Assembly: GCA_038144595.1 (NCBI GenBank)
Contig: JAYQOB010000006.1
Location: 68,013-132,012 of the forward strand
Length of the DNA stretch: 64,000 bases
From: Candidatus Poseidoniales archaeon
GTDB lineage: Archaea; Thermoplasmatota; Poseidoniia; Poseidoniales; Poseidoniaceae
Direction of reading: 5' to 3'
The notes under the pieces were generated by a model. The model did not search any database, had not been told where the DNA came from, and saw only the letters and a list, made by a program, of their open reading frames with translations. Numbering within the stretch: the stretch's first letter is position 1; the number at the start of each line of letters is the position of its first letter. Positions 32,437 to 63,985 of the stretch are shown here, in pieces. Made by a program: the position numbers and the translations under genes.

Positions 32437-32482
32437 GTCAATACCCCCGAAGGTTCGGTATCCCTCCCCATGCCATGTGTCG

Positions 32483-46245: not shown

Positions 46246-46403
46246 CAATATCACCTGTTGCACCGGCCACTTGGGAACCCTTCATAAGCCGTTCCCAGCA
46301 AAAATGACCCGCTGTTGCGGTTTTGAAGGCCTCTCTTGAGTACCGTTGGGACGGGAGCACGAAGGGGCAATCGTTCAAAGAGGAGGAACCGCTGGTCGTT
46401 TTC

Positions 46404-50031: not shown

Positions 50032-50463
50032 TCAGAAGAGTGAGAAGCCGCGTCCCACGATGCTGGTGACCATGACCACACCGGCCAGCATCATCGTGAT
50101 GCGAACGGCGACGTGCTGGTCAGCGTCTTCCTGCGATTCACGGAAAAAGGCGTAGCCGAGCAAAACGATGGCACCGGTTTGAAGAATGACCGAAACCGCA
50201 CCAAACAGGGCCACTTGTCCCTCGTAACTGTCGACGTCGTCGAGGTATTGCTGGGCCTCCTTCTCATCGAGCAGGTCGTAATCTGCAGCGTTTGGCACCG
50301 AGGAGTCCAGTGGGAACTGAGCAAAGGTGGCTGAAATCACAAGCATGATCATGCCGATCATCAGCCACTTCTGGAAGGAGTACATGCTCCCTTTGGCCAT
50401 GGCGGCGGCCGGTGGCTGATAGGGAGAGGCGGCGGCTGGAGGGGGCGGAAGCGGTGCTTGCAT
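50032..50463 (-). CDS. Hypothetical membrane protein (Pro-rich N-terminus, 3 TM) at the distal end of the archaellum operon
   Basis: From ATG 50463: MQAPLPPPPAAASPYQPPAAAMAKG... followed by 3 hydrophobic helices. It starts 42 nt downstream of the flaJ stop on the same strand. Confidence 0.45.
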   Translation of the reverse strand: MQAPLPPPPAAASPYQPPAAAMAKGSMYSFQKWLMIGMIMLVISATFAQFPLDSSVPNAADYDLLDEKEAQQYLDDVDSYEGQVALFGAVSVILQTGAIVLLGYAFFRESQEDADQHVAVRITMMLAGVVMVTSIVGRGFSLF

Positions 50464-50504
50464 GGTTGTGAAATCGTCAGCGGGAGTATGAATGTTCCCG
50501 AGCC

Positions 50505-52307
50505 TCAGACACTGAAGATGCTGCCTGCTTGGCCGAGAACGATGGCTGTGAACAGCGAGGCCAGCCCGGCGACCCACGTCAGTTGAATCATCTGCCCAAC
50601 GGCACTCATTCGAGTTCCACCTCGAAGCCGTGTGGCGATGGATGAAACGGTGACCACCTGCATCAAGATGAGCAAGGAGATGATGATTTTGAACATCCGA
50701 ATGTTGTCTTCAACCGACGAAGCGTCTTCCATCACGGGCAGTGCAATACCGCCCGAGAATTCTGAGAGCGCACCCACATCGGTGTCGACCAAACCGGAGG
50801 CCACGCCAGCGATGGCTTCACCGAGCTGGAGCACGATGGAGGTGGTGACGTTGAGCGAGGCCACGCTGGAGATCAGCAGACCGAGGGCCACACCCCACAT
50901 CGTGTTGGCCGAAAGGGAACGGCGGTTGCGCAGCGAAAGCAAGTTTCCGACACTCCTTGAGACCATTTCAGCGGTCTCGGCTGGTTGGCCTGAGGATTGC
51001 GAACCCTCAATGTAGATGCGGGTGTAGCGGGAGATGACCGCCGAGTTGGTGTCGGCGGTGAAGTAATCCCACGCACGGTCGGAGTCAATGCGGGTGGAGA
51101 GACGCTTTTCCAAGCGGTCGATGGAATTGTCAAGCATACCGAAATCAATGCCCCGAAGGGCTTTGATGGTGGCTGACGGTTCGGCTGAACGCGCCTGGGC
51201 CGTCCCACCGAGCGCACGGATGAAGTCGGGATAGGTGTCGTCACGGCGTTGAATTTGATTTTCTTCGCGCCGAACCATGAACGCAGGGATGAGCAGGGGG
51301 GAAAAGGGGAGTGCGATGAACAGCAAGCCGTACTTGTCCCATTCCGACGTGATGATGTCCCATGTCCAAATCAGCGTCAGAGTGGACAGCACAACCAACC
51401 CCGCAGCGATGGCCCCGGAGAGCAGGAGCGAGCGACGAAAGTTGATGCGAAACGGGGTTTCCATCTCGTCCCTCGCGAAAGTTGCATCCTTTGGAATCGT
51501 GGCACGGAAGGCGAACACGGCAGCCAGTTGAATGAACACAAACACCAAGGAAGCGAGCAACAGGAAGCGCAGCCGACTGGCCACTTCAATGGGGGTGTCG
51601 TTCGCACCGCCCACTTCGAACAGCACGAGGTGAATGCCGGCGATGACCAAGCCGAACAGGCCGGCGGTGTTCAACGAGACGTAGATTTCCTTGAGCGTGT
51701 CAACGGATTCCAAGCGAGTGTCGTAGAGCGTGTTGTACTGCTCGGCGATGGTTTCTTGCTCCGAGCGCATGAATTCGTCAATGGGTTGGCCGGCCTCGAT
51801 GGAGAAGGCCATGCGGTCGAGAAAATCCGACCACAGCGGGCTCGGGCTTTGGTGAGCGACGATTCGTGCGGCCTCCGGGAGCGACGTGTTCCACTTGTCG
51901 ACCAAGGTTTCGATGCGTTTGACCTCAGAAGCCAACTCCCCGTAGTCTCGCATTTGCTTGAGGATGTCAAAGATGGACTGGGCCCCGACTTCACCGATGG
52001 ACAAAATGCCCATGCGCGTGATGAACATGTGCATCTCTTCTTCGATCAGCGTGGCCGAACGCTGGACATCGAGAACGGGAAAGGCCACCGCTGCGAGGGC
52101 CGACATGGCCGACAGCAGGATGACGAAGAGGACGCCGGTAAAGCCCGCAAACAAGGCCCCTTCCGCCAGTCCGCCGGTCAAAAAGACGATGACCATCGCC
52201 AGGAGGAAGGTTACCGCCACGATGGGAGCGACGTACAACGTGAGAAAACGAGGAACCGGCATCTCCAGACGACGAAGGGCAATGTGCCAAATTGGCATGC
52301 GCTCCAT
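50505..52307 (-). CDS. flaJ: Archaellum membrane platform protein FlaJ/ArlJ
   Basis: 600 aa, polytopic, two T2SF-like halves. Immediately downstream of flaI (12-nt spacer). Confidence 0.85.
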   Translation of the reverse strand: MERMPIWHIALRRLEMPVPRFLTLYVAPIVAVTFLLAMVIVFLTGGLAEGALFAGFTGVLFVILLSAMSALAAVAFPVLDVQRSATLIEEEMHMFITRMGILSIGEVGAQSIFDILKQMRDYGELASEVKRIETLVDKWNTSLPEAARIVAHQSPSPLWSDFLDRMAFSIEAGQPIDEFMRSEQETIAEQYNTLYDTRLESVDTLKEIYVSLNTAGLFGLVIAGIHLVLFEVGGANDTPIEVASRLRFLLLASLVFVFIQLAAVFAFRATIPKDATFARDEMETPFRINFRRSLLLSGAIAAGLVVLSTLTLIWTWDIITSEWDKYGLLFIALPFSPLLIPAFMVRREENQIQRRDDTYPDFIRALGGTAQARSAEPSATIKALRGIDFGMLDNSIDRLEKRLSTRIDSDRAWDYFTADTNSAVISRYTRIYIEGSQSSGQPAETAEMVSRSVGNLLSLRNRRSLSANTMWGVALGLLISSVASLNVTTSIVLQLGEAIAGVASGLVDTDVGALSEFSGGIALPVMEDASSVEDNIRMFKIIISLLILMQVVTVSSIATRLRGGTRMSAVGQMIQLTWVAGLASLFTAIVLGQAGSIFSV

Positions 52308-52319
52308 GTCTCATCATCC

Positions 52320-54035
52320 TCAGTTGTGGTTGACCCCGACCCAAGTGTCGATGGCTCGGCTAAAGTGGTCCCAACCGTTGGAGTAGTACAAACCGAGAAG
52401 GTCGAACACGTCGTCGTAGTGGGTCAAATCACGGTCGGCCATGCGCTGGATGGCATCTGCTCGGCGAAGCATTTCGTCGTAGATATCACGCTTGTTGGCA
52501 AAACCTGCCATGGCTGCAATCTTGTTTTCGAGCAGGTGGGACTGGAACATACCGCGGAAGTAGTGCTTGTCCTTGACCGGGTCCCACTCAAACATACCGC
52601 GGGTCAGCACACCGTCGCTGTGCTTGTTGTAGCCGATGACTTCGTCGATACCGGTGATACGTCGGGCAATACCGCCACCCGGCGCCTCCACGACTTCCTG
52701 GAAAATGGCGAAATTCAGGTTATCGAAGAACCGAATCGGGACGTTGATCGGGTCACCGGTGAAACGTTGAATCATCTTGACGATGGAGGAGGCGTGGAAG
52801 GTAGCGATGACAGGGTGGCCTGTTTGCATGGCTTGGAAGGCGGTCGCACCCTCGACACCACGGATTTCACCGATGATGATGTAGCGTGGACGGCTACGCA
52901 AGGCGGCTTTGAGCAGGTCGAACATCTCAACACGGGAATCTTCGTTCTTGGCGTCACGGGTGACCAGGCGCTGCCAAATCTTGTGGCGCACCTTCACCTC
53001 AGGTGTGTCTTCTGCGGAGTAAATCTTCACGTTGTGGTCGATGAACGGGAGAATGGCATTGAGCGTCGTGGTTTTTCCCGATGCGGTTTCTCCCGACACC
53101 AGCACCGACATGCCGTATTCGAGGCAGATCCAAATGTACGCCGCTTGCTGCGCTGACATCGTCCCCCATTTGATGAGTTGAATCACCGAGATGGTTTCCT
53201 CTGCGAACTTACGAATGGTGAACGAAGGCCCGAGCATGGAGACGTCGTCGGAGAAGATGATGTTGATACGTGAACCGTCGAGCAACACACCGTCGATGAT
53301 GGGTTTGTTGTCCGACACCGGTCGGCCGATGCGTTCCGACATGGCACGAAGATAACGGGAAAGCAGCTCTCGCTCACGGAACCGAATGTTGGAAGTGACC
53401 ATGCCGAACACCTTGTGGTCCATGTGAATGTGTTTCAGCCCGACCGAGTGAATATCTTCCAGCATTTCGTCGGACAGCAGCGGCTCAAGCGGCCCGTTTC
53501 GAATCAAATCTCGAATCACGACGTACGTCAGCCGCTCTCGTTGGGCTTGGGTCACGGTCAAACGTTTGTCGTCCATGCCGATGAGTTCCCACATGCGCCC
53601 TTGACGACGAACAAGGTTGTTCGCCTCGGTGTCGAGGATGGTGTAGCGCTCAATCATTTGCTGGAGGATGTTCTCAAATTCGTTGTCGGTCGTGAACGAA
53701 GGGGCGGTGGGGGCTTCCTGAAGCAGGGTCTCCACAAGCTCACGGCGAATGTTCTCCTCTTCCTCCGTGAGTTGCGGCTCGAGTCCGAACCACAGAATGG
53801 TACCGCCGCCGTCGTCGTCGGCAGGAGGCTCGTAAATGTGGACGAAGATGGGTTCGCGAGTGACGTAGATAAGGTTGAGCGGACGTTGTTTCTTGGCGTC
53901 GCGGTCCAGTGGACCGTAGTACATCGGACGAGAGCCGTAGCGCATCTCGAAGTCGCGGACCCATTCTGCGACGTGCGGGTAAGCCGCCATGACGCCGTTG
54001 AGGTCGCCTTTTGCGAATCGAGGTTCGTCAGCCAT
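52320..54035 (-). CDS. flaI: Archaellum assembly/motor ATPase FlaI/ArlI
   Basis: Walker A SGETASGKTTTLN. Walker B/Asp-box IIIGEIRG. His box. AGGAGGAGGA SD upstream. Confidence 0.95.
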   Translation of the reverse strand: MADEPRFAKGDLNGVMAAYPHVAEWVRDFEMRYGSRPMYYGPLDRDAKKQRPLNLIYVTREPIFVHIYEPPADDDGGGTILWFGLEPQLTEEEENIRRELVETLLQEAPTAPSFTTDNEFENILQQMIERYTILDTEANNLVRRQGRMWELIGMDDKRLTVTQAQRERLTYVVIRDLIRNGPLEPLLSDEMLEDIHSVGLKHIHMDHKVFGMVTSNIRFRERELLSRYLRAMSERIGRPVSDNKPIIDGVLLDGSRINIIFSDDVSMLGPSFTIRKFAEETISVIQLIKWGTMSAQQAAYIWICLEYGMSVLVSGETASGKTTTLNAILPFIDHNVKIYSAEDTPEVKVRHKIWQRLVTRDAKNEDSRVEMFDLLKAALRSRPRYIIIGEIRGVEGATAFQAMQTGHPVIATFHASSIVKMIQRFTGDPINVPIRFFDNLNFAIFQEVVEAPGGGIARRITGIDEVIGYNKHSDGVLTRGMFEWDPVKDKHYFRGMFQSHLLENKIAAMAGFANKRDIYDEMLRRADAIQRMADRDLTHYDDVFDLLGLYYSNGWDHFSRAIDTWVGVNHN

Positions 54036-54048
54036 GATATCCTCCTCC

Positions 54049-54786
54049 TCAGCTCACCGCCGTGATGTCAACGATGAAGCCCATACCGGGCTCAACACGC
54101 CAACCAACGGATGTTTGAATCGGCCCTGCTGCACGAAGGAACCGTGTGATGATGATGTTGCGCTTCAACTCGCCACCGATCATGGCGTTGTCCAGATCGA
54201 GAACGACCTCGGCAGAGGCCCGCAAGGTATGCAGAAGTGAATGGTCCATTTCTTCTGGGTCAGCACAGAGCATGAAGGAGCGTCCGTCAGAGGCGAGTTT
54301 GCGAAGTTGTTGGATCAGGTTGTAGTGGTCCGCTTTTGTGCCGCCTTCCGGCATCAACGAACTCGCAGAATCCAACACGATGACATCGGCCGCCGGGATG
54401 GCTGGGCTGCTGAGCACTTCTTGGAGCGACACGTCTTGACGGGCATCCGCCACCGTACCGTAGCGACTGAGCACCATGACACGGCCCTCTCGGATGGCGT
54501 CGGTCATGCCGTAGCCGATGCTCTCCATCTGTTCGATCCATCCACGCGTGGTGAGTTCGGTCGTGATGACCAGCACCTTGACCCCGTTGTGAACCATGCC
54601 GTGAATGAGGCGCTGGGCGATGAGGGATTTCCCCGCACCGACCTTGCCCTGCAGAAGGTAGAGCGAGCGATTTGGCAGTCGCAGTCCCATCGAGTCCGCC
54701 AACGAATCGGTTTCAACCTCAAAGGGGAAGCCGTCTTCCACAGGCTTGTGGGCCGTCATGAAGGGGTTTTCGTCAGGAGAAAGCAT
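54049..54786 (-). CDS. flaH: Archaellum RecA/KaiC-like ATP-binding protein FlaH/ArlH
   Basis: Walker A QGKVGAGKS, VLVITTE. Canonical operon position between flaG and flaI. Alternative start at 54759. Confidence 0.85.
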   Translation of the reverse strand: MLSPDENPFMTAHKPVEDGFPFEVETDSLADSMGLRLPNRSLYLLQGKVGAGKSLIAQRLIHGMVHNGVKVLVITTELTTRGWIEQMESIGYGMTDAIREGRVMVLSRYGTVADARQDVSLQEVLSSPAIPAADVIVLDSASSLMPEGGTKADHYNLIQQLRKLASDGRSFMLCADPEEMDHSLLHTLRASAEVVLDLDNAMIGGELKRNIIITRFLRAAGPIQTSVGWRVEPGMGFIVDITAVS

Positions 54787-55264
54787 TCAATCTCACCTCC
54801 GCACTGGTGGTCGCTGAGTGGGTGTTTCCGCTGACTCGCTCGGACACACCGACAAAGAAGACCGAGATGTCTTCGCCGTCAGCGTAGGTCCACGAGCTGT
54901 TGGTCAGCACAATCTCAAGCAGGTCGCCAGGATTCCATTCCGTTCCGCTCGGGAGTACGGCTTCTGTGCTCGTGGGCGGCACTTCACCGTCGATGAGAAC
55001 TTCGTAGTTGGACGTGTCCAGATCATAACTTCCGGTGTTCAGGAAGTACAGGGTGATGGTATCGCTGCTGTTGTTGTAGGCCACCATCGCAGGATCGCCT
55101 GCAAGCGCAACGCTCACACCGCTCCTCACGTCAGAGGCCCGCTCGTTCACCTGGACGACGCGAACGGCATCGCTCCATTCAGCGATGAGCAGAGCGCTCG
55201 CACCGCCCGAAATGAGCAAAGCCGTGATCAGCATGACCATTGAAGAAGCACCTCCGTCCGCCAT
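54773..55264 (-). CDS. flaG: Archaellum protein FlaG/ArlG-like
   Basis: N-terminal helix MADGGASSMVMLITALLISGGASALLI followed by a beta-rich domain. Operon position supports the call. Confidence 0.65.
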   Translation of the reverse strand: MADGGASSMVMLITALLISGGASALLIAEWSDAVRVVQVNERASDVRSGVSVALAGDPAMVAYNNSSDTITLYFLNTGSYDLDTSNYEVLIDGEVPPTSTEAVLPSGTEWNPGDLLEIVLTNSSWTYADGEDISVFFVGVSERVSGNTHSATTSAEVRLNAFS

Positions 55265-55268
55265 TCCA

Positions 55269-55914
55269 TCACCACAACCCGTGTGCTACGGTGGTTGAAC
55301 CCACCGAAATTGTCATTCGTTCATCGCCGGGCAGACCGGTGTCAAACCAGTTCAAGAAGAGCGTTTCACCTGAAAACCAGAGATTGGTCAACGGCGGATT
55401 GTAAACGCGACGAAAACTGCGTCGCATTTTGGCCGTCAAGGAACACCCAAACATCGTCGTGATTGATGGTGGTCGAGCCGGTATTGGTCACGTTGGCGTA
55501 GAGCACATTGCCGAGTACGGCGGTCAAACTGGCAGTCGAGGTTGGCGTTCCGCCACCGTTCACGACCAAGGTTGGGAGCGAGGAATAATTTCCGTGGCTG
55601 GTGATCACCACGGAAGTGATGGCTCCCGTACCGTTTGTCGTGTAGGTCGCGGAAAATCCGCCGTTTCCGCTGGAGGCTTCAATCGTGCCTCCGCTGCTGT
55701 AGCCTGAACCGCCGTCAGCGATGGTGACGTCAACGATGGCACCGGTGAAGATCACCGCATCGTCAATGGTGAAGGTTGGCGTGGGTTCATCTGCTTCTTC
55801 AATCCGGTCAACACCGGATTCAATTTGCAGCGAAATGGCCTGATAGGCCATGGAGAACACCACCAGCATCGAAATGCCGATGATGAGCCCACCTACACCA
55901 ACCGAAGCACCCAT
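55269..55914 (-). pseudogene. flaF: Archaellum protein FlaF/ArlF-like, interrupted by a 1-nt frameshift at a T4 run (plus-strand A4, 55413-55416); pseudogene or sequence error
   Basis: ATG 55914 lies 1 nt after the upstream stop: MGASVGVGGLIIGISMLVVFSMAY. After ...LDGQNATQF, the protein-like continuation RRVYNPPLTNLWFSGETLFLNWFDTGLPGDERMTISVGSTTVAHGLW* is in the frame of ORF 55269..55454. That frame ends 4 nt before the flaG ATG. Confidence 0.6.
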
Positions 55915-55915
55915 G

Positions 55916-56773
55916 TCACTCTTCACCCCGAAGCATGTGGAGCTGTCGCCAGGACGAGACCAACGCCGAGAACACCAACAGTTGTCGGTGCGGCAAATGG
56001 TCTTCCAGCGCCGTTTCCGGATCACCCGGTTCTGCCAACTGAACGATGGCAAGAACGGCGTCGCCTTCCTCTTGGGTCAGCATGCCGGATTCCATGGCCT
56101 TCTGCGTGAAACTCACGGCGGCCATGCCGGACATGTGGTCGAGGAGCAGCGCAGCGACCGTGGGCGCACCCGTGCTGGATTGACTGCTGGACCCGCTTGA
56201 ACGAGGGGCGACGAGGAACGGGTTGGCCGCCAAGGCTTGCGCCTCGTACAACTCAACCAGTTGACCCTGGTCGTCTTCCATCATGCGAGACGAACCACCG
56301 ACTTCCACAACCTCGCCGCTGGCGGTGATGATGCGGTCGCCGGTTGTCCCGTCAGCGTCGTCGTCGGACGCATCGCTCTCGTGGCTCTCACCGTCTGCAC
56401 CAGCCTCGGCGTTGACGGATACGCCTTCTTCGAGGCGATGTTCCACCATTCGCAGGACGTCCTCAACCATGTCGAGGCGGCTGCTGATGAGGCGCTCAAG
56501 GCCAGAGGTGTCGACCGTCGCAGGAGCGGCTGGTACCGGCGTGGGGGCCGGTGCGAGCGTGGCTGCGACGTTGGGGACACTCTGTTGGCTGTTGATCCGA
56601 GCACGTGTTGGTCCGGGGGAAATCGTCCACGCGTCCTCCTCTGTGAGCATTCCCTGTTCAGGGAAAGGCACCTGCTCAATGGCCACGTTGGCCAAGATTT
56701 TCAGGCGCTCTTCGCTCAAGTTTTGGTCTGCGCTTTTGTTTCCACCCGAGTTTCCACTAAATGGCCATGCCAT
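55916..56773 (-). CDS. Acidic hypothetical protein occupying the FlaC/D/E position of the archaellum operon
   Basis: 285 aa. Strong SD GGAAGGAGGT 6 nt upstream of ATG 56773. Pro/Ala linker, acidic stretch (ESHESDASDDDADG). No motif I recognise. Confidence 0.55.
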   Translation of the reverse strand: MAWPFSGNSGGNKSADQNLSEERLKILANVAIEQVPFPEQGMLTEEDAWTISPGPTRARINSQQSVPNVAATLAPAPTPVPAAPATVDTSGLERLISSRLDMVEDVLRMVEHRLEEGVSVNAEAGADGESHESDASDDDADGTTGDRIITASGEVVEVGGSSRMMEDDQGQLVELYEAQALAANPFLVAPRSSGSSSQSSTGAPTVAALLLDHMSGMAAVSFTQKAMESGMLTQEEGDAVLAIVQLAEPGDPETALEDHLPHRQLLVFSALVSSWRQLHMLRGEE

Positions 56774-56789
56774 GTGATAACCTCCTTCC

Positions 56790-56809
56790 GAGAGTCAAAA
56801 CTGACTCTC
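56790..56809 (-). promoter_or_regulatory. Perfect 8-bp hairpin (GAGAGTCA-aaac-TGACTCTC) between the archaellin genes and the downstream accessory genes
   Basis: Read directly from the sequence. It lies 75 nt after the flaB2 stop and 17 nt before ATG 56773. Possible attenuator or processing site. Confidence 0.4.
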
Positions 56810-56884
56810 AGAAGTGATCAAACCACAAGAGCGCCAGCAGTTGTATCGTCAATTGTGACGTCTCGTAGGTTGTTCCACCACCGT

Positions 56885-57375
56885 TCAAGACGTGAAGGTA
56901 GAGTTGGAACTTGTGATTGGATCTCCGCCTGCGTCTGTTGCTGCAGGACCACAATCAACTGTTGCACTTGTTGCATCGATATGTACAATGTAACCATCAC
57001 CAACATTCATTAATGTAGTTGCTGTTGCAAGGTCGGCTTCGTCTTCCATTGTGTGTACGTCAGTGTTAGCCAGTTCACCCTCAACAACACCGTTTGCACA
57101 GAACAACTGATAGGTGATTGGAATGGGAGCGTTGGTTCGCTACCAGGTGCAAGACGAACGAGGAGGTGGAATTCATCTGTTTGCGCAGTGGCGGAACCCG
57201 TCCCAACGTAAGCAGTGTTGATCATGATCTTCCCGCTCATTTCGTCAGCGGTGTCATCACCGGCGGTTTGTGCGTTCTGTTGAAGTTTTTCAGCGGTCTG
57301 AATGATGACTGCAGCAGCAACGGCTGCAACAAGAATCAGAGCGATGAAGACAATCATGGCACCGATACCGATGGC
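56885..57375 (-). pseudogene. flaB: Archaellin paralog 2: no start codon upstream of its conserved AIGIGA cleavage motif, plus an internal frameshift near 57118-57130
   Basis: AIGIGAMIVFIALILVAAVAAAVIIQTAEKLQQNAQT is identical to flaB1 at the protein level. After ...VRLAPGSEPTLP, the flaB1-like continuation ITYQLFCANGVVEGELANTDVHT...GDGYIVHIDAT...* lies in the frame of ORF 56885..57106. Confidence 0.65.
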
Positions 57376-58010
57376 TAGAGAATCTTGTCCTTTGGATTGA
57401 ACATGGACTGTTGGTCTTCAAATGACCACCTCGCCGTCAGCACAGATCCGCCGTAGTTCAAGACTTCGTAGGTGAAACCACCTGTTCCAGATTGAACGTT
57501 GAATGTGTGTTGTGCGTTTGCTGTTGGTTGGCAAGGTTGTTGGGTCAAGCTGGATGGTGTAGGTTTCACCAGGCTGAATGGTTGTAGCTGCATTTCCGGC
57601 CATATCCCTGTTCCAAGGTCAGAGGCAGCACGGTGAACCGTGGTTGTTTCATCGTTAAAGTTCCCAGCGTCAAGTCCACCGTTAGCACCATCATCACAAG
57701 TGATGACCCACTGAATCGTGTGGCTGACAACTGGGTCCGAACCAGGTGCCAATTCAAAGGTCACATACAGGTCATCAGTGTTTGTGATAATCACCGACTT
57801 GATGGTAATCTTTGATGCCATCATGTCGGTTGTATCCTCACCCGTGGTCTGTGCGTTCTGCTGCAGCTTTTCTGCCGTCTGAATAATGACAGCAGCAGCC
57901 ACTGCTGCGACCAAGATCAGCGCAATGAACACAATCATTGCCCCAATACCGATGGCCGCAACGTTGTCGCGGTTTTCGTTCTTCATTTCTTTCTTCATGT
58001 TTTTCACCAT
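57375..58010 (-). CDS. flaB: Archaellin (FlaB/ArlB) paralog 1 with a class III signal peptide
   Basis: ATG 58010: MVKNMKKEMKNENRDNVAA/IGIGAMIVFIALILVAAVAAAVIIQTAEKLQQNAQT. The track's longer N-terminus overlaps the upstream gene and is rejected. An internal segment of about 85 nt looks better in another frame (see findings). Confidence 0.8.
   Translation of the reverse strand: MVKNMKKEMKNENRDNVAAIGIGAMIVFIALILVAAVAAAVIIQTAEKLQQNAQTTGEDTTDMMASKITIKSVIITNTDDLYVTFELAPGSDPVVSHTIQWVITCDDGANGGLDAGNFNDETTTVHRAASDLGTGIWPEMQLQPFSLVKPTPSSLTQQPCQPTANAQHTFNVQSGTGGFTYEVLNYGGSVLTARWSFEDQQSMFNPKDKIL
57846..57956 (-). repeat. 111-nt paralogous block shared with 57265..57375 (archaellin N-terminal helix)
   Basis: 37 codons are identical at the amino-acid level. 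By my count 19 of the 37 codons differ, and every difference is synonymous. Confidence 0.85.
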
Positions 58011-58053
58011 TTTTTGTTTTCTTCCCCGCCGCTGCGGGTGGAACAGGATGCGG

Positions 58054-58995
58054 TCAAAGAGCACCTCCTTGACCGAGGTTGATGCGAAGCGGCATGCGGA
58101 GCACGGCGACTTCGTCTGGAGCAAGATTACGAATGAAGGGCACCTCTTCGGCGGAGAAGCCGGGAGGAATCCAGGGCGTGAGCAGAACTTCAGAAAGCGG
58201 TTCCATCGAACGGTTCTGAACGCGCATGGTGACCGTGATTTCACCCGACCGCATCTCGTAGGCAGTGGCCACCGACAACTTGCGGGTCAGCGGGATGTCC
58301 TCGGATGAAAGGCGGTAGTCAGGCTGGATGTCAAAGCGGAGCGGGATGTTGCCGCCGGGGGCGATGATGGGCAAGTCAACGTTGGGCGGATTGGCCGTCC
58401 AGCCCTCGGGCACGGGCGGCTTCAAGCGCAGCATCGGCATGGGAATGGGGCCGTCGTTGATGATGCGGACCAGCAACACACCGGATTCTCCACCGGCAGG
58501 CCAGCGGGTGTCCACGCCCATCCAGAAGTGGCGGAACAAGAACGGGTTGAGCGTTGAGGTGTTGCCGCCAATCATGTCTTCGAGCAGGTCTTCGACCTCT
58601 TCGGTAGAGGCACGAATGTCCCCCATCTCGGCTGCGGCGGTCGCCTCTCGGAGTTTGTAGAGGATGCGCTCGGCTTCTTCGAGGGAAATGTGCTTATGCA
58701 CCAGCAAACGATGGAGCATGGCGATGCTGCGGCGAAGGTGCAGAACGTCCTCCTCCAACTCCTCAAGGGTCTTTTCTGCCCGACGAAGCGATTTTTTGGC
58801 TTTGCTCAGTTGGTGCAGGCTCAGGTGAACCTTGACCTCGCCGAGGTCCATCTCAGTTTCCGCCAGCGAAGGGTTCTCGCGCTTGGCGGCCTGCCGAGCG
58901 ATACGCTCGAGGGTTTGCGAGGCTTCGAGGATGCCTTGCTCGCGCTCGGCACGCTCTTGCGCCATCATGTCCGCCAAGGCGTCGTCTTCAGGCAT
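58054..58995 (-). CDS. Hypothetical coiled-coil + beta-domain protein, translationally coupled to the upstream 1,665-aa gene
   Basis: ATG 58995 overlaps the upstream stop by 8 nt (GATGCCTGA). The N-terminal half is heptad-like and charged (MAQERAEREQGILEASQTLERIARQAAK...). The C-terminal half is beta-rich (ITVTMRVQNRSMEPLSEVLLTPWIPPGF, CARDB-like). Confidence 0.6.
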   Translation of the reverse strand: MPEDDALADMMAQERAEREQGILEASQTLERIARQAAKRENPSLAETEMDLGEVKVHLSLHQLSKAKKSLRRAEKTLEELEEDVLHLRRSIAMLHRLLVHKHISLEEAERILYKLREATAAAEMGDIRASTEEVEDLLEDMIGGNTSTLNPFLFRHFWMGVDTRWPAGGESGVLLVRIINDGPIPMPMLRLKPPVPEGWTANPPNVDLPIIAPGGNIPLRFDIQPDYRLSSEDIPLTRKLSVATAYEMRSGEITVTMRVQNRSMEPLSEVLLTPWIPPGFSAEEVPFIRNLAPDEVAVLRMPLRINLGQGGAL

Positions 58996-61900
58996 CGTCT
59001 TCCACCTCCTCTTCGGCCCCTTCTTCCGCCTCAAATACGAGATCGGTCGCGGGTTCCTTTTCACCCTCGTCTGAGATGATGGGTTCGGACGCCCCACCGG
59101 CAGGCGCAGCAGCACCACCTGTGGTTGCAGCGGCCACCGGAGCGCGTTCACCGAGAATCGCAGAGAAGTCAAGTCCTTCATCGGCCAAGTCGTTGAGCAA
59201 GCGGGCGGGGTCGCTCAAATCACGCTCGATGCGAATGGACTTGACCTCAGCATCCGTCATGCGACCGTAGAGGTTGCCGTACATCTTGTCCGAGCGCTTG
59301 AGCAGGTACCAGACACCGGCCATGATGATGAAGAAGTACGCCGCCATGACCACCAAGTTGTCGCTGTCCGTGGAAAGTTGGGGCGGGAGTCCAAGAACGA
59401 TCGCAAGCATCCCCAGCACCGGGATGGACAAGATGATGGTCAACTGCCGTCGGCTGTCCTTGAGGGCTTCAAAGTGGTCAGAATACACCGTGGAAGTCCC
59501 CTTTCTGGCACGCTGATAGTCTTCGTGAATGAGTCTGAACTCGTCGCTGCTCTTCCACGTCATGCGCCAAATCCACAGGGCACTCAAGGCGAGAATGGCG
59601 GGGCCGTAATACGGGACTTGGAACAGGTGGAAGGCAAAGCCAAAGGCGATCACGCCAGCATAGACGCCACCGAGTTGCCACTTCTCGGACTGGCTGGAGA
59701 GGCGAACGAACACGAAGGAAAGCAACGCCGCCACAACACACGCTACAAAGGCGATGGAAAGGTCGGGTGACCACGATTGAACGGTCTCTTCACCGAGGTC
59801 AACCCCTTGTGAACGGTCGTTGGTTTCGTCGTTGCCGTCGCCGACGTAGAGGAAGGAAAGGGAGGCGTCGCACTGAACGGTACGCTCAACTTCCCACCAG
59901 TCGATCGTGACCGGACGCACGTCCCACGTGAAGGTGTGCTCGGCGTTGGCTGCCATGATGGGCACCATGTCGGGGACACTGAGCACGTCGACAGCCCCGT
60001 TGCAATCCAACATGGCTGAAACACCGAGGGCTTGAGCCGTGCCGTCGTTGCGCACGGTTACCTGATACTGTGTTTCTTGACCTTCGTAGAAGGCTTCGGG
60101 GTCAACCGGGCCTTGGGCGTGAATGGCCGGGTCGGCGAAGACGGCCAGCTGGTAGGTGAAGACGTCCTCTTCGTAGACGGTGTAGCCGCTGTTCTCGTCA
60201 GGGTGATAGAGGCGGAAGGTGAGGTCCCATCCGTCGCCGGGAAGAATGTTGGGCGGGTTGGGCGCATCAACGATGAGTTCGATCGGGGCGCTGGTGACCC
60301 AGGGCTGTCGGCTTGGCAAAGTGATGCGGGATTCGGGACCCAGCGAAGTCGAACCGCAGAAGGCCGACATGTTGAGTGGGTAGTCGGTGTCATCGACCCG
60401 AACGGCAAACGTCCAACCGTAGAGGGAAGCGTTCTGGCCAAGGTCGTCCACATCGAGGAGGCGTTCGGCACGGCACAATTCAAGTTCGTACGCCACGGCA
60501 CTCTCGGGCCCCATTGGGATGTGCGAATAGACGATGGAGAAACTCTGCGGTCCATTGTCACTTGGTGGCGTGACCGAGGTGTCGCCGAGTTCGAAGAACC
60601 GATTCATTCGCAGGTCTGTGTAGTACTCTGCACTGCCTTGGACCGCCTCTTCGGTGGGGTCGAGGGTGAGGATGAGGTTGGCGGCCAGTGTCAACGCCGG
60701 TTGGACGGCGACGCTGCTGATGCTGAAGGAGAAGGGGACGGTTTCGCCACGTGGAAGGAACAGGCGAGAAGGAGCGGTTGGAGAGACTTCCCAATCCAAG
60801 CTCGGTGTGGTCAAACCACCCTGAAGCAGGGTATAGGTCACGTTGACTTCAACGTCCTTGTTGCCGGTGTTGGTGATTTTCACGTCCCACGTTCGGCTGA
60901 TACCGCGGTGATAATCCATGGTCGTTGGCCAGTCCTCAACTTCAACGAGGAACAACGGTGCCACCACGAAGCGGAAGGTGTGCACCTTGAGTTCATCTCC
61001 CGTGGTAGCGTTGAGGACACGAATGGTGACGGGGTACAGCGCACCGTTGGCCATGCTGTTGTCGTCGGTCAAGGCCGGAACGTCGACATCAAACGAGCCC
61101 GTGTAGGTAGCACCCACGTCAAGGCTCAACGGGAGCGAAGCAGGTGTTACGGTCCAGTTGCCGGCCACCGAAGTTTCCACAATGACATCTTCAACGAGAT
61201 TCCCGTTGTTGATGAGGGAGAAATCTACGGTTTGCGTTTCGCCAGGAACAACACCGATCTCTTCCAAGGTACCGACCACAAGGCCGTGTTGCTCACTGAT
61301 GTTGCCGAGGATGTTGGCCGAGAGGTTCAGGCCGGATTCGACGTTCGAGACCCAAACGGTGGCGTAGTAGTTGGCGGCGGCGAGCGCGTCGGTGGTCGGC
61401 GTGAGACGCACGCGCACGGTGGATTCGTACCCAGCACCAATCTGGACGACGGTGGGCGTTTCGAGCACGAAATCGATTTCACCGGCGTTCGACGTATCGA
61501 GGTAGACGCCAAAGGTGGCGGGCGTGTTGCCGTCGTTGCTGATGATGACGCTCGTGGTGATCGTCTCGCCGATGGAGAGGTTCACGGTTTGGCTGGTGGG
61601 CGAGAGTGAAGCGTTGACTTTCTCGCCCACACGAATGGGCACCTCAAACGACGCAATGTACGTGCCCGAGGACATCTCAAACACGTCGATGCCGATGGGC
61701 TCCACGCTGTTGGCCGGGGCTTCGGGGTCCGTGGTGAGAATGAGCGGGAAGGTGGTGATGTGCGTTGAAGCGTTTGACGGGTAATCGGCCACATCGGCGG
61801 GCACGTCGGTGACCGTGGTGGATGGCATGATGCTGCTGGTGCTGAACGAAACATCCCAGCCGTCCGGGACTTGGTCGTTCAGTACCAGGCGGTAGGAGGT

Positions 61901-63985
61901 CATGTTGTTGCCCGTGTTGGCGAGGTCGATGTCGAACGTGGTCTCTTCGCCGACCATGGCGTCGAGGGTGGTGCCGTTGTGGCCTTCAACACCAAGCACG
62001 GGTGGAATGTTGATGGTCAAGGTCTGCGAGATGGAGGTTGGAATCACGTTGGCGCTGCTGTGAGCCGCACCGAGGCTCGGCGTGGCCGTAATGGGGATGG
62101 ACAGCGAACCGGCCACGGAATAGTCGTCGGCGGGCCCCTGAACCGTCAACACGGCCTGACGGGTCTCACCGAGGGACATGCCCGGCAACGAGGTGGGCGT
62201 TAATCCAACGGCCCAGCGAGCCGCTTCAGAGAAACCACCGGACGAATCGGAGGTGAAGACAGGCGTGCCGAGGGAGAGGGTGGTGTCGACCGTCTCTGAG
62301 AGCTCCGTGACGAGGTTGTGGCGGACCTCGACTTCGAGATCGAGAATTTCTTCCAATCCGCTCCCCTGCTGTGCTTCAAGGACTTGCTGCACCGTCATGT
62401 CAATGCTCTGGGTTGGCAGGCCGGGGTCCACCACGATGACGGGGAGAATGCGAACGGGCGTGGCGTTGACTTCTGGTACGCCGCCGTCCACCGAGGTGGC
62501 TTGTGCCCACACGGACATGGTGTCGCCGGCTCCGTTGTATTCCGCAGGAACGAGCGGATTCTGAATCACGGGCGGGGTGACCGTGAGCGTGACGTTGACC
62601 GATTCACCGGGCTGGAGCGTGCCCGTGGTGGCGGATGAAAACGAAAGATCCCAGTTGATGGGGTTGGTCGAGATGCCGGCGTTGAGGGTGAAGGACGTTG
62701 GTGCGTTGCCATCGTTTTGCACCTTCACTTGAATGGGCGAGGGATTACCCGGCGTCAGTGATTTGGTGTCGCTGTCCATTTCGACCGTGCCGTCGTAGGA
62801 TTCGCTCGCAAGGATGGTGGTGGAGACGCTCTTGGCAAATCCACCGCCGTTGGAGGTGATACTGAGCGTGATGGTGTCGGCGTCGGTTCGGAGCGCCGAT
62901 GCTGGGACGGTTACGTCGACGAACACGTAGGTGGTGCCGTTGGCCGTGACCGTTGGCGTGGAGGGCGATGGGCTGACGGCCGACACCCACCCGTTCACGT
63001 CCGAAACGCTGACCTGATAGTCATCCACACTGACACCGGTGTTTTCGATGGCGTAGGTCAACTGTGCTGTTTGCCCGGGCTCAACGCTGCGGTCGTGAGC
63101 GGCGGTCAACTCAAAGTCGTAGTTGGAAAACACCACGCGCTGGTTGAGGAACTCGATTGAATTGGCCCAATTCAGTCCGTTGAAATGCATCTCACCAACC
63201 ACATCCCACTGCCCTGTGCGTGCGGTCGCATCGAACTGCATGGTGACATCGTAGAGGGCGGCTCCACCGGCATACAGGGAGCCGGGGCGAACAACGGGGA
63301 CGATGCTGGAGACCTCGGAGAAGGCGTTCGTAGGGTTGCCTGCTTCGGTGAAGTTGAGGTAGAACTGGGCCGATTGATTCTTCACGCCGTCGTTGCGAAC
63401 TTTGACGGTAAAATCGTGCATGGTTTGCGACCACACCACGCTGCTGGCGCCGCTGCTTGGTTGCGGGATGTCCACCACCGGAACGCTGCTGTTTTGATAG
63501 CGGCTCACGTTGATGACCATCTGGTCTTCGTTGTTGGCCGTGTTCACGTCGGTGGAGGAGGAGATGCGTGCCTTCAGGATCTGATTGGCCCCCAAGGTGG
63601 CCGACCACGAGAAGACCGACACAGCACTGGAAGCACCGGCGGCGATAACGCCAAGGTCGGTGCTGTCAATGAGGACATCGCCGGATGAGGCCGTACCCTG
63701 GAGAAGCAGCGTGAGCGATGCCTGGCCTGCTGCGAGGCCGATGTTTTGAACCTGAACACGAACGACGTGGGTGGCGTCTTCGGCCTCTATTCCGCCGCCG
63801 AGGTTCATCGAACCCGCATCATCCAAGGTGAACGATGACACCACGAAATCAGGCGTTGATCGTCCGCCATCGGCCATGGCGAGCGGTGTCAAGCTCGCCA
63901 CCAACATCAGGGCAACAAGGCCCAAGGGGACGGCGGGCTTAGACAGGGTCTGCACCTCCTCGATTGGGTTCCGTGAAGCGGTCAA
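58988..63985 (-). CDS. Large (1,665 aa) surface protein: signal peptide, many CARDB/Ig-like repeats, then a 5-TM module and an acidic cytoplasmic tail
   Basis: Uninterrupted 5-kb ORF. Signal ...PLGLVALMLVASLTPLAMA/DGG. Repeated motifs of the type VxVxNxGxxxxxxxL. The last 261 aa (58988..59773) contain 5 hydrophobic helices and the tail EAEEGAEEEVEDDA. The start is uncertain (TTG 63985 or GTG 63955). Confidence 0.8.
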   Translation of the reverse strand: MTASRNPIEEVQTLSKPAVPLGLVALMLVASLTPLAMADGGRSTPDFVVSSFTLDDAGSMNLGGGIEAEDATHVVRVQVQNIGLAAGQASLTLLLQGTASSGDVLIDSTDLGVIAAGASSAVSVFSWSATLGANQILKARISSSTDVNTANNEDQMVINVSRYQNSSVPVVDIPQPSSGASSVVWSQTMHDFTVKVRNDGVKNQSAQFYLNFTEAGNPTNAFSEVSSIVPVVRPGSLYAGGAALYDVTMQFDATARTGQWDVVGEMHFNGLNWANSIEFLNQRVVFSNYDFELTAAHDRSVEPGQTAQLTYAIENTGVSVDDYQVSVSDVNGWVSAVSPSPSTPTVTANGTTYVFVDVTVPASALRTDADTITLSITSNGGGFAKSVSTTILASESYDGTVEMDSDTKSLTPGNPSPIQVKVQNDGNAPTSFTLNAGISTNPINWDLSFSSATTGTLQPGESVNVTLTVTPPVIQNPLVPAEYNGAGDTMSVWAQATSVDGGVPEVNATPVRILPVIVVDPGLPTQSIDMTVQQVLEAQQGSGLEEILDLEVEVRHNLVTELSETVDTTLSLGTPVFTSDSSGGFSEAARWAVGLTPTSLPGMSLGETRQAVLTVQGPADDYSVAGSLSIPITATPSLGAAHSSANVIPTSISQTLTINIPPVLGVEGHNGTTLDAMVGEETTFDIDLANTGNNMTSYRLVLNDQVPDGWDVSFSTSSIMPSTTVTDVPADVADYPSNASTHITTFPLILTTDPEAPANSVEPIGIDVFEMSSGTYIASFEVPIRVGEKVNASLSPTSQTVNLSIGETITTSVIISNDGNTPATFGVYLDTSNAGEIDFVLETPTVVQIGAGYESTVRVRLTPTTDALAAANYYATVWVSNVESGLNLSANILGNISEQHGLVVGTLEEIGVVPGETQTVDFSLINNGNLVEDVIVETSVAGNWTVTPASLPLSLDVGATYTGSFDVDVPALTDDNSMANGALYPVTIRVLNATTGDELKVHTFRFVVAPLFLVEVEDWPTTMDYHRGISRTWDVKITNTGNKDVEVNVTYTLLQGGLTTPSLDWEVSPTAPSRLFLPRGETVPFSFSISSVAVQPALTLAANLILTLDPTEEAVQGSAEYYTDLRMNRFFELGDTSVTPPSDNGPQSFSIVYSHIPMGPESAVAYELELCRAERLLDVDDLGQNASLYGWTFAVRVDDTDYPLNMSAFCGSTSLGPESRITLPSRQPWVTSAPIELIVDAPNPPNILPGDGWDLTFRLYHPDENSGYTVYEEDVFTYQLAVFADPAIHAQGPVDPEAFYEGQETQYQVTVRNDGTAQALGVSAMLDCNGAVDVLSVPDMVPIMAANAEHTFTWDVRPVTIDWWEVERTVQCDASLSFLYVGDGNDETNDRSQGVDLGEETVQSWSPDLSIAFVACVVAALLSFVFVRLSSQSEKWQLGGVYAGVIAFGFAFHLFQVPYYGPAILALSALWIWRMTWKSSDEFRLIHEDYQRARKGTSTVYSDHFEALKDSRRQLTIILSIPVLGMLAIVLGLPPQLSTDSDNLVVMAAYFFIIMAGVWYLLKRSDKMYGNLYGRMTDAEVKSIRIERDLSDPARLLNDLADEGLDFSAILGERAPVAAATTGGAAAPAGGASEPIISDEGEKEPATDLVFEAEEGAEEEVEDDA

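What the first reader, a model, noticed from the sequence alone, without database searches (positions are those of the whole stretch)
50032..63985. Archaellum operon with a canonical flaB-F-G-H-I-J core but no recognisable FlaC/D/E or FlaX; four unassigned genes take their place
Seen: one 14-kb minus-strand array. In order: 1,665-aa Ig-repeat/5-TM protein -> (8-nt overlap) 313-aa coiled-coil + beta-domain protein -> two archaellins -> hairpin -> 285-aa acidic protein with a strong SD -> flaF -> flaG -> flaH -> flaI -> flaJ -> small Pro-rich 3-TM protein. Established: euryarchaeal operons normally place FlaC/D/E between the archaellins and FlaF, crenarchaeal ones use FlaX, and FlaF/G contact the S-layer. 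Inference: the coiled-coil protein and the acidic protein are candidate functional replacements (cytoplasmic ring or switch). The 1,665-aa protein, with its polytopic C-terminal module and acidic cytoplasmic tail, could be an envelope anchor or stator-like partner. No prepilin peptidase (FlaK/PibD) is present in the window.
Basis: partly seen in the sequence, partly recalled or inferred. Interest (0 to 1): 0.6.

Follow-up and report, generated by a model that had tools for sequence, protein, structure and literature searches.

The report
Marine Group II archaellum gene cluster
This is the swimming-filament (archaellum) gene cluster of the abundant, uncultured ocean archaea called Marine Group II; its unassigned genes are conserved partners across the order, and one of them is probably a very diverged copy of the usual motor-ring protein.

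Summary
The window comes from Ca. Poseidonia (Marine Group II, Poseidoniales).

- **Synteny.** The order 1,665-aa Ig-repeat membrane protein (BIG), 313-aa coiled-coil/Ig protein (CC), arlB x2, 285-aa acidic protein (ACID), arlF-G-H-I-J is kept in 80 Poseidoniaceae species loci. It is also kept in Thalassarchaeaceae loci and in a third Poseidoniales lineage.
- **Transcription.** Metatranscriptome contigs span the junctions from BIG to arlH.
- **ACID.** It sits in the ArlC/D slot. It has no transmembrane helix and belongs to a narrow family (67 clusters among 1.84 billion representatives). Its only recurring Pfam hit is FlaC_arch, sub-threshold, on its invariant LYEAQ..NPFL motif. I read it as a diverged ArlC/D-type motor scaffold (about 0.6).
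- **BIG and CC.** They are translationally coupled and order-wide linked to arl genes. Their role (envelope anchor or adhesion module) is inferred.
- **The small 3-TM gene.** It is limited to part of Poseidoniaceae. Thalassarchaeaceae carry an A24 prepilin peptidase at that position.
- **Fifth gene.** A conserved 145-aa gene lies just outside the window.
- **Frameshifts.** In this window arlB1, arlB2 and arlF are frame-broken. For arlF this is probably an assembly error.
- **Prior work.** Tully 2019 already reported conserved unannotated genes in this locus.

The parts
58988..63985 (-). BIG: 1,665-aa surface protein. It has an N-terminal hydrophobic signal or anchor, about 1,350 aa of CARDB/NEW3/ASH-type Ig-like repeats, a C-terminal polytopic membrane module (3 clear plus 2 weaker TM segments), a conserved juxtamembrane cytoplasmic segment and a variable acidic tail.
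   Evidence: (NPCBM_assoc 1.8e-19, CARDB 5e-17). The membrane module at residues 1401-1600 is the best conserved part and the tail at 1601-1665 the worst. It is syntenic in MGIIa, MGIIb and L171.
58054..58995 (-). CC: 313-aa cytoplasmic protein with a five-helix coiled-coil/spectrin-like N-domain, an invariant GGNTSTLNPFLFRHFW linker and an Ig-like (NEW3/ASH-type) beta-sandwich. Its start overlaps the BIG stop by 8 nt.
   Evidence: NPCBM_assoc hits 14/16 members (best 2.4e-5) and EzrA 14/16. AF2 model, fold search. No predicted TM helix.
57375..58010 (-). arlB1 archaellin with a class III signal peptide (..AAIGIGAMIVFIALILV..). The reading frame is broken three times in this window. By comparison with an orthologue the true stop is at 57418-57420.
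   Evidence: PF01917 4.4e-18. Frame analysis against the L010 protein.
56818..57421 (-). arlB2 archaellin (TTG start overlapping the arlB1 stop in relatives). The frame is broken at the N-terminus and twice further on in this window.
   Evidence: PF01917 6.4e-18. RNA and DNA contigs of relatives show single-base differences at 57377, 57403, 57409 and 57128.
56790..56809 (-). RNA hairpin (8-bp stem GAGAGTCA/TGACTCTC, loop GTTT) between arlB2 and ACID. It is directly followed by the GGAGG Shine-Dalgarno sequence at 56781-56785.
   Evidence: The structure is conserved while the sequence differs in 63 unique Poseidoniaceae sequences (median z -3.5, 87% with z<-2). It is absent in MGIIb.
55916..56773 (-). 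ACID: 285-aa acidic soluble protein in the ArlC/D/E slot. It has an N-terminal helix, a long helix (89-125), a disordered acidic linker, a helix ending in the invariant LYEAQALAxNPFL motif, and a confident four-helix C-terminal domain (203-282).
   Evidence: invariant E177 N184 P185 F186 L187; AF2; FlaC_arch.
55269..55914 (-). arlF (214 aa in relatives). As read here the ORF stops early at 55366, because the window has one base at 55407 that all four closest public runs lack.
   Evidence: NCBIfam ArlF 4e-6.
54773..55264 (-). arlG (163 aa).
   Evidence: NCBIfam ArlG 1.2e-16.
54049..54786 (-). arlH (245 aa, KaiC-like). It overlaps arlG by 14 nt.
   Evidence: NCBIfam ArlH 2.7e-48, Pfam KaiC ATPase.
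52320..54035 (-). arlI motor ATPase (571 aa).
   Evidence: NCBIfam NF058587, 674 bits, above its 550-bit cut-off.
50505..52307 (-). arlJ platform protein (600 aa).
   Evidence: NCBIfam ArlJ 3e-116, Pfam T2SSF.
50032..50463 (-). SMALL: 143-aa protein with a Pro-rich N-terminus and three TM segments. It is conserved downstream of arlJ only in part of Poseidoniaceae.
   Evidence: It is absent in L048/L052/L058/L071/L075. It is not detected by tblastn in MGIIb, where an A24 peptidase follows arlJ.

Best explanation
This is the archaellum (arl) gene cluster typical of the order Poseidoniales (Marine Group II).

**Shown.**
- The core arlB-arlB-arlF-G-H-I-J is canonical.
- It is embedded in an order-wide conserved array: u145, BIG, CC, arlB x2, ACID, arlF-J.
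- Environmental RNA contigs bridge the junctions from BIG to arlH.

**Inferred, step 1.** ACID is the Poseidoniales version of the euryarchaeal ArlC/D cytoplasmic component. It is a soluble, acidic, modular helical protein. Its helix-NPFL module is a much-diverged FlaC_arch domain. It probably assembles around ArlH/ArlI as the cytoplasmic scaffold or stator ring. It has no chemotaxis-coupling role, because MGII is reported to lack che genes.

**Inferred, step 2.** BIG and CC are made in fixed proportion, as suggested by the overlapping stop and start codons, and form a membrane-spanning pair. BIG is a giant Ig-repeat ectodomain on a conserved polytopic anchor, and CC is a cytoplasmic coiled-coil/Ig partner. 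The pair works with the archaellum. The most likely role is a surface anchor or adhesion module in a lineage whose relatives lack an S-layer.

**Inferred, step 3.** In Poseidoniaceae the structure-conserved hairpin plus strong SD after arlB2 sets a high archaellin to lower accessory-gene expression ratio.

**SMALL** is a family-level add-on, not part of the conserved machine.
For: - **Organism.** Source names on homologues are Ca. Poseidonia or Poseidoniales.
- **Core genes.**
- **Synteny in MGIIa.** Every one of the 80 genome-representative Poseidoniaceae loci with enough flank keeps the order. Where ArlH is 70% identical, ACID is 62-67% and CC 56-66% identical, above ArlF and ArlG at 34-52%.
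- **Synteny elsewhere.** The same order holds in Thalassarchaeaceae metagenome loci (ArlI cluster named Ca. Thalassarchaeum). It also holds in a third lineage with flotillin and TSP_3 neighbours.
- **ACID family.** Only 67 representative clusters among 1.84e9. The invariant motif is E177..N184-P185-F186-L187.
- **FlaC_arch signal.** It is the only family hit by more than one member, and is always placed on that motif: 4/13 members plus 2 MGIIb orthologues, E 0.016-0.27, profile positions 17-54 or 40-54 of 55. By my own estimate, a chance hit of that strength landing on one of about five archaellum-accessory families among 24,736 is roughly 1e-5 or less.
- **Relatives.** The Thermoplasmatales archaeon Oxyplasma meridianum has arlB-arlC-arlD-arlF-G-H-I-J, so ArlC/D occupy exactly this slot within the same phylum. 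There arlC/D are transcribed far above arlF-J (PMC12448462). Makarova 2016 found that FlaX and the thaumarchaeal 'unknown' are diverged FlaC/D/E (PMC4858521).
- **ACID model.** Flexible multi-domain helical protein.
- **Coupling.** 8-nt BIG/CC overlap here, and 0-2 nt spacing or a short overlap in the other lineages.
- **RNA contigs.** They span BIG|CC (58781-59632), CC|arlB1 (to 58116), arlB|ACID|arlF (55638-57527) and ACID to arlH (54551-56758). Depth runs arlB > ACID/F/G > BIG > arlI/J.
- **Hairpin statistics.**
Against: - No ACID member reaches the FlaC_arch gathering score (27.8 bits; best 16.0).
- Family consensus sequences give no FlaC_arch hit. NCBIfam gives none. Arch_fla_DE is never hit.
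- I could not run a true profile-profile comparison with ArlC/D/E/X, because no such sequences could be fetched.
- The fold search of ACID against the PDB found nothing, and the model is only moderately confident (pLDDT 63).
- For BIG/CC the link is by synteny and shared transcripts only. Logan RNA contigs are unstranded, come from 88-97%-identical relatives, and may contain DNA.
- The window holds several other giant surface-protein ORFs, so BIG could be an ordinary adhesin.
- In this window arlB1, arlB2 and arlF are frame-broken as read.
Confidence: 0.6

Rival explanations
1. ACID is a lineage-specific invention with no ancestry in ArlC/D/E/X. It replaced the lost ring or switch proteins (non-homologous displacement) or does something else, such as regulation or chaperoning of archaellins.
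For: All curated models fail at threshold. The family is confined to Poseidoniales. The confident C-terminal four-helix domain and the N-terminal EEAWTISP motif match nothing. The FlaC_arch hits cover only 15-38 residues.
Against: The same weak family recurs in both MGII families on the invariant motif. The position is exactly that of arlC/arlD in Thermoplasmatales relatives. Precedent shows that the occupants of this slot are extremely divergent yet homologous.
Confidence: 0.3
2. BIG, CC and u145 are a separate cell-surface or adhesin operon. It merely sits next to the archaellum genes and shares read-through transcription, with no mechanical role in the archaellum.
For: Ig-repeat (CARDB/NEW3, 'COG1470') membrane proteins are common archaeal surface proteins. 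The window carries other giant surface-protein ORFs, for example a 4,610-codon ORF at 14170-28002. Published readings of MGII stress adhesion (PMC6461757). No similarity to any Arl protein was found.
Against: Adjacency and orientation are kept across lineages in which BIG has drifted to 23-25% identity. CC is more conserved than ArlF and ArlG. CC ends only about 44 nt before arlB1. RNA contigs bridge CC into arlB1.
Confidence: 0.3
3. The cluster in this particular genome is decaying. The frameshifts in arlB1, arlB2 and arlF are real, and this strain no longer builds an archaellum.
For: Seven frame changes in about 2.7 kb relative to intact orthologues.
Against: Contigs from all four closest public runs lack the extra base at 55407 at full depth, which restores arlF. 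Same-species MAGs carry intact archaellins (L087: 190 and 171 aa). All other genes, including ACID between the broken ones, are intact. The breaks fall in the strain-hypervariable stretch where MAG contigs of this species end, which is typical of consensus errors.
Confidence: 0.12

Closest known systems
Euryarchaeal arl1-type archaellum cluster (arlB-arlC-arlD/E-arlF-G-H-I-J), as in Pyrococcus, Haloferax and the Thermoplasmatales archaeon Oxyplasma meridianum
   Same: Multiple archaellins come first, arlF precedes arlG, then arlH-I-J. A soluble, TM-less, highly transcribed protein lies between arlB and arlF. The prepilin peptidase is encoded elsewhere (in MGIIa).
   Different: There is one 285-aa protein instead of separate or fused ArlC, D and E, and it does not reach any curated FlaC_arch or Arch_fla_DE threshold. 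No chemotaxis system is reported for the lineage (PMC6461757, PMC6864105). Conserved extra genes (u145, BIG, CC) lie upstream of the archaellins.
Crenarchaeal ArlX (FlaX) ring protein
   Same: It occupies the slot after arlB, is helical or coiled-coil, occurs in organisms without chemotaxis, and is thought to scaffold ArlH/ArlI.
   Different: ArlX has an N-terminal transmembrane helix and ACID has none. ArlX clusters have the order arlG-arlF. No sequence signal to ArlX could be tested here.
'Putative MGII motility operon' of Tully 2019 (PMC6336850, Fig. 4), and Rinke 2019
   Same: It is the same locus. FlaA/B, G, H, I, J are syntenic with 'several orthologous proteins lacking annotations', and the structure is conserved in MGIIa and variable in MGIIb.
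   Different: Those papers left the unannotated genes undescribed. The additions here are their architectures, the FlaC_arch lead for ACID, the BIG/CC coupling, the hairpin, the RNA contigs and the ArlK position in MGIIb.
COG1470 / NEW3 (NPCBM_assoc)-CARDB archaeal surface proteins
   Same: BIG and the beta domain of CC carry this Ig-like domain. One CC homologue is named 'COG1470 family protein' by UniRef.
   Different: CC has no signal peptide or TM helix, so it is probably cytoplasmic. BIG ends in a conserved polytopic module. The pair is fixed next to arl genes.

Membership tests
Archaellum (arl/fla) gene cluster | Co-located archaellin(s) with a class III signal peptide plus ArlF, ArlG, ArlH, ArlI and ArlJ | tested here: met
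   Pfam and NCBIfam hits for all. ArlI is above its curated cut-off. ArlF, G, H and J are below their cut-offs but are the best hits and lie in canonical order.
ArlC/ArlD/ArlE (FlaC_arch PF05377, Arch_fla_DE PF04659) | Match to the FlaC_arch or Arch_fla_DE model at the gathering threshold | tested here: not met
   The best FlaC_arch score is 16.0 bits (E 0.016) against a 27.8-bit cut-off. It recurs in 6 family members on the invariant YE..NPF motif. Arch_fla_DE is never hit, and the consensus sequences are negative.
ArlC/ArlD/ArlE | Soluble (no TM helix) and encoded between arlB and arlF | tested here: met
   No hydrophobic segment in ACID. Position confirmed.
ArlC/ArlD/ArlE | Binds ArlH and docks CheF (switch function) | not testable with these tools
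   Needs multimer modelling or biochemistry. The literature reports no che genes in MGII. I did not screen the genome.
ArlX (FlaX) | N-terminal transmembrane helix followed by a cytoplasmic coiled coil, in clusters ordered arlG-arlF | tested here: not met
   ACID and CC have no predicted TM helix, and the order here is arlF-arlG. No ArlX sequence or model was available for comparison.
CheF (DUF439) | Match to the CheF family model | tested here: not met
   No such Pfam or NCBIfam hit for ACID, CC, SMALL or u145 at E<=0.1-10.
NEW3/CARDB Ig-repeat surface proteins (COG1470) | NPCBM_assoc or CARDB domains | tested here: met
   BIG: NPCBM_assoc 70 bits and CARDB 62 bits, both above their cut-offs. 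CC: NPCBM_assoc in 14/16 homologues, best E 2.4e-5; the window's own copy scores 13.2 bits (E 0.11), below the 24.4-bit cut-off.
ArlK/FlaK/PibD prepilin peptidase (A24) | Polytopic protein with two catalytic Asp motifs (G-x-G-D-x-K) | tested here: not met
   None in the window. In MGIIb the gene after arlJ hits Arc_PepC_II (8.4e-5) and Peptidase_A24 (0.025).

The most novel reading that the evidence does not exclude
BIG, CC (and u145) form a lineage-specific, envelope-spanning anchor for the archaellum motor. BIG's giant Ig-repeat ectodomain gives ArlF/G something rigid to hold in a cell without a crystalline S-layer. CC links BIG's membrane module to the ACID/ArlH/ArlI ring, perhaps through the helix-NPFL motif that ACID and CC share. 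This would be a third solution, beside the ArlX membrane ring and the ArlCDE-polar cap, to how an archaellum motor is kept from spinning in the membrane.
Probability: 0.2. Interest if true: 0.75.

Novelty: new variant of a known kind. Interest (0 to 1): 0.45.

Why it matters
Marine Group II archaea are the most abundant planktonic archaea in surface oceans and are uncultured. Whether their archaellum swims or only sticks to particles is still debated (PMC6461757, PMC6864105).

How archaella are braced against the envelope in S-layer-less Thermoplasmatota is an explicitly open question (PMC12448462).

A defined, order-wide set of accessory genes gives concrete candidates for the cytoplasmic ring and for an envelope anchor. 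These are a probable diverged ArlC/D, a coupled giant surface protein with a cytoplasmic partner, and a small basic protein. They can be tested by co-folding, heterologous expression and cryo-tomography.

It also warns annotators that 'ArlCDE absent' calls in Poseidoniales probably reflect divergence rather than loss.

Tried and rejected
- **Fetching ArlC/D/E/X comparators.** A tblastn of ArlI against PLSDB plasmids found only pilus-type ATPases at 35% identity. The supplementary alignments of PMC12448462 are images. No ArlCDE structure turned up in the papers read or in the PDB searches. A true profile-profile test was therefore impossible.
- **Consensus sequences of the ACID family** scanned against Pfam and NCBIfam gave nothing.
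- **PDB searches.** Sequence and fold searches for ACID, CC and u145 gave nothing specific.
- **Are ACID and CC paralogues?** hhalign aligns only the 17-residue NPFL stretch, E 0.074. I do not claim homology.
- **Metagenome scans.** The scan with P0174 alone found nothing.
- **Source names of distant ACID clusters** were uninformative. The lineage was identified through ArlI instead.
- **Paralogues in the window.** None of BIG, CC, ACID or SMALL has one in the rest of the window.
- **Checking the window's archaellin frames against a same-species MAG (L087)** failed, because the variable domains differ beyond the conserved N-terminus.


Full report
**1. What is in the sequence.**

ORF listing and translation confirm one minus-strand array from 63985 down to 50032.

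- BIG: 58988-63985, 1,665 aa.
- CC: 58054-58995, 313 aa. Its ATG overlaps the BIG stop by 8 nt.
- Two archaellin genes.
- An 8-bp/4-nt hairpin at 56790-56809, followed by GGAGG 7 nt before the next ATG.
- ACID: 55916-56773, 285 aa, pI 4.3.
- arlF, whose ATG lies 1 nt after the ACID stop.
- arlG, arlH (14-nt overlap with arlG), arlI and arlJ.
- SMALL: 50032-50463, a 143-aa protein with three TM segments.

Pfam and NCBIfam identify the core:

| Gene | Best hit |
|---|---|
| archaellins | PF01917, E about 5e-18 |
| ArlF | 4e-6 |
| ArlG | 1e-16 |
| ArlH | 3e-48 |
| ArlI | 674 bits, above its cut-off |
| ArlJ | 3e-116 |

ACID and SMALL have no family. CC has only a coiled-coil-type hit. BIG has CARDB, NPCBM_assoc and other Ig-like domains. 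The window contains no A24 prepilin peptidase motif.

**2. A caveat on this copy.**

I compared the window with the intact proteins of a close strain, L010.

- arlB1 changes frame three times.
- arlB2 changes frame three times. Its signal peptide is out of frame with the TTG start.
- arlF changes frame once.

ACID, which lies between these genes, is intact, and so is every other gene.

Contigs from the four public runs that share most of this sequence all lack one base at 55407, at full depth. Without it arlF reads through to ..HGLW*, 4 nt before arlG.

MAG contigs of the same species end at arlF/arlG or in the archaellins. A same-species MAG has intact archaellins, but with a different variable domain. 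The archaellin stretch is thus strain-hypervariable. The frame breaks are most simply consensus errors, though real decay in this strain is not excluded.

**3. Origin and prior knowledge.**

Source names on homologues and on 80 related genome loci place the window in Ca. Poseidonia (Poseidoniaceae, MGIIa).

- Rinke 2019 and Orellana 2019 reported the MGII flagellar operon and the absence of chemotaxis genes.
- Tully 2019 stated that the locus lacks most canonical annotations. [quoted passage not shown]

The bare observation is therefore published. The unannotated genes have not been analysed.

**4. Synteny.**

A tblastn of the eleven window proteins against the 80 Poseidoniaceae loci shows the same order and orientation wherever the flank suffices. 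At the distant end, where ArlH is about 70% identical:

| Protein | Identity |
|---|---|
| ACID | 62-67% |
| CC | 56-66% |
| ArlF, ArlG | 34-52% |
| BIG | 36-47% |
| SMALL | 31-38% |

SMALL is missing in one clade.

A metagenome scan seeded with distant ACID relatives returned 80 more loci. Their ArlI falls in a 90% cluster named Ca. Thalassarchaeum/Thalassarchaeaceae, that is MGIIb. These loci keep the order BIG (about 1,710 aa), CC (about 347 aa), arlB x2, ACID (about 272 aa), arlF-G-H-I-J.

The most distant ACID relative, P0174, lies on 55-66 kb contigs with the same order, next to flotillin and thrombospondin-repeat genes.

A 145-aa basic protein (u145) lies directly upstream of BIG on the same strand. 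It is 71-100% identical in MGIIa and 50% identical in the third lineage, and no MGIIb match was found. In this window it would begin just beyond coordinate 64000.

After arlJ the lineages differ:
- MGIIa has SMALL.
- MGIIb has a 334-365-aa A24 peptidase (Arc_PepC_II 8.4e-5, GGADVK motif).
- The third lineage has a 913-aa unknown protein.

**5. ACID.**

An exhaustive phmmer search of 1.84 billion representatives finds only 67 clusters, so the family is narrow. Alignments show three conserved features:
- an N-terminal EEAWTISP..R motif;
- a long helix;
- an invariant E177..N184-P185-F186-L187 (LYEAQALAxNPFL), followed by a conserved C-terminal domain.

AlphaFold2 (pLDDT 63 overall) predicts, in order:
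- a helix at residues 13-29;
- a disordered stretch;
- a helix at 89-125 (pLDDT about 86);
- an acidic disordered linker;
- a small hairpin;
- a helix at 165-183;
- a four-helix domain at 203-282 (pLDDT about 88).

PDB sequence and fold searches find nothing.

Scanning family members one by one against Pfam gives a single recurring family, FlaC_arch (PF05377). It hits 4 of 13 members (E 0.016-0.27) plus two MGIIb orthologues (0.049, 0.072). The match always places profile positions 17-54 or 40-54 of 55 on the invariant motif.

Each hit is below threshold, and family consensus sequences give none. But the library has 24,736 families and only about five are archaellum accessories. By my own estimate, a chance hit of this strength on that family, in the gene that sits in the ArlC slot, is very unlikely.

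Two published facts raise the prior:
- In the related order Thermoplasmatales the operon is arlB-arlC-arlD-arlF-G-H-I-J, and arlC/D are transcribed far above arlF-J (PMC12448462).
- FlaX and the thaumarchaeal 'unknown' were shown to be extremely diverged FlaC/D/E (PMC4858521).

I conclude, at about 0.6, that ACID is a diverged ArlC/D-type scaffold with a lineage-specific C-terminal domain. ArlX is disfavoured because ACID has no TM helix and the gene order is F-G.

**6. BIG and CC.**

BIG has an N-terminal hydrophobic segment, about 1,350 aa of Ig-like repeats and a C-terminal membrane module. That module, with the following 50 cytoplasmic residues, is the best conserved part (0.64-0.74 mean identity within MGIIa, against 0.42-0.63 for the ectodomain). 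The final acidic 65 residues are the worst conserved (0.23).

CC has 626 detectable homologues. Its strongly conserved stretches are LEEDVLHLRRSIAMLHRLL and GGNTSTLNPFLFRHFWxGVDTRWPAGG. The AF2 model shows five helices followed by a beta-sandwich. That sandwich matches only generic Ig, ASH or appendage folds and NPCBM_assoc (14/16 members). CC has no signal peptide or TM helix.

The BIG stop and CC start overlap by 8 nt here, and are separated by 0-2 nt or overlap in the other lineages. This suggests coupled translation and a complex.

ACID and CC share only the short helix-NPFL motif (hhalign E 0.074). I record this as a possible common docking motif, not as homology.

**7. Expression.**

Marine metatranscriptomes contain close relatives of the locus. 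Their assembled contigs bridge:
- BIG|CC (58781-59632);
- arlB2-arlB1 into the CC 3' end (57053-58116);
- arlF-ACID-arlB2-arlB1 (55638-57527);
- arlH-arlG-arlF-ACID (54551-56758).

Depth is highest on the archaellins (28-54), intermediate on ACID, arlF and arlG (9-20), lower on BIG (2-12) and near zero on arlI and arlJ.

Three caveats apply. The contigs are unstranded, their depth is a poor measure of expression, and DNA carry-over is possible.

The hairpin after arlB2 is conserved in structure but not in sequence in 63 unique Poseidoniaceae sequences (median MFE -19.4 kcal/mol per 50 nt, median z -3.5, 87% with z<-2, GGAGG in 98%). It is absent in MGIIb. It probably acts as an attenuator or 3'-end stabiliser that sets the archaellin to accessory-gene ratio. 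That role is inferred.

**8. Verdict.**

The array is the normal Poseidoniales archaellum cluster.

- The claim 'no recognisable FlaC/D/E or FlaX' holds at curated thresholds, but it probably reflects divergence of ACID rather than absence.
- BIG and CC, plus the unseen u145, are linked to arl genes across the order. They are the most interesting part, given the open question of how S-layer-less Thermoplasmatota brace the motor.
- SMALL is a family-level accessory.
- The mechanism proposed for BIG/CC is inference only.
- Novelty is moderate. This is a lineage-specific variant of a known machine, and its existence, though not its analysis, is already in the literature.

Noticed in passing
window 55407; 56818-58010: Seven frame changes are concentrated in arlB1, arlB2 and arlF, while all neighbouring genes are intact. 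Contigs from the four closest public DNA runs lack one base at 55407, which restores arlF. This is probably a set of consensus errors in a strain-hypervariable stretch.
   Followed up: partly
L087:4620-5057; L010:433-867; L171:2354-2794 (just beyond window 64000): A conserved 145-aa basic, helical protein (pI 9.6, no TM helix, no family) lies directly upstream of BIG on the same strand. It is present in MGIIa and in the third Poseidoniales lineage, with no MGIIb match found. It is a likely fifth member of the array, perhaps a regulator.
   Followed up: partly
L158:16352-17356; L107:13852-14949: In Thalassarchaeaceae the gene after arlJ is an A24-type prepilin peptidase (Arc_PepC_II 8.4e-5, GGADVK motif). 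There the ArlK peptidase is inside the operon, whereas Poseidoniaceae encode it elsewhere.
   Followed up: partly
L171:16264-19005: In the third lineage a 913-aa protein with no family follows arlJ, with a 1-nt overlap.
   Followed up: no
window 56790-56809 and the equivalent sites in L007-L086: The stem-loop between arlB2 and ACID is conserved in structure, not in sequence, across Poseidoniaceae and always abuts a GGAGG. Thalassarchaeaceae lack it and use ATGAGGTG-type sites.
   Followed up: yes
window 55916-56773 (residues 174-190) and 58054-58995 (residues 140-156): ACID and CC both carry an invariant helix-x-NPFL motif just before their C-terminal domains. The FlaC_arch profile end aligns to the ACID copy. 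It may be a shared docking motif.
   Followed up: partly
window 14170-28002 (-), 29296-32490 (-), 32630-37264 (-), 10709-13453 (-), 6091-8730 (-): There are several very large ORFs (4,610, 1,064, 1,544, 914 and 879 codons, measured stop to stop), some with hydrophobic N-termini. They are presumably giant surface proteins of the MGII kind and are not related to BIG by BLAST.
   Followed up: no
window 47176-49116 (+), 49231-50028 (+), 44176-46281 (-): The neighbours downstream of the array are a PolX/PHP DNA polymerase, an endonuclease III (HhH-GPD) and an H+-pyrophosphatase. These are housekeeping genes that mark the end of the operon.
   Followed up: no
L001-L006, L087-L090: MAG contigs of this species break at arlF/arlG or inside the archaellins. 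Archaellin variable domains differ between strains whose CC proteins are 100% identical, so this is a strain-level hypervariable island.
   Followed up: partly
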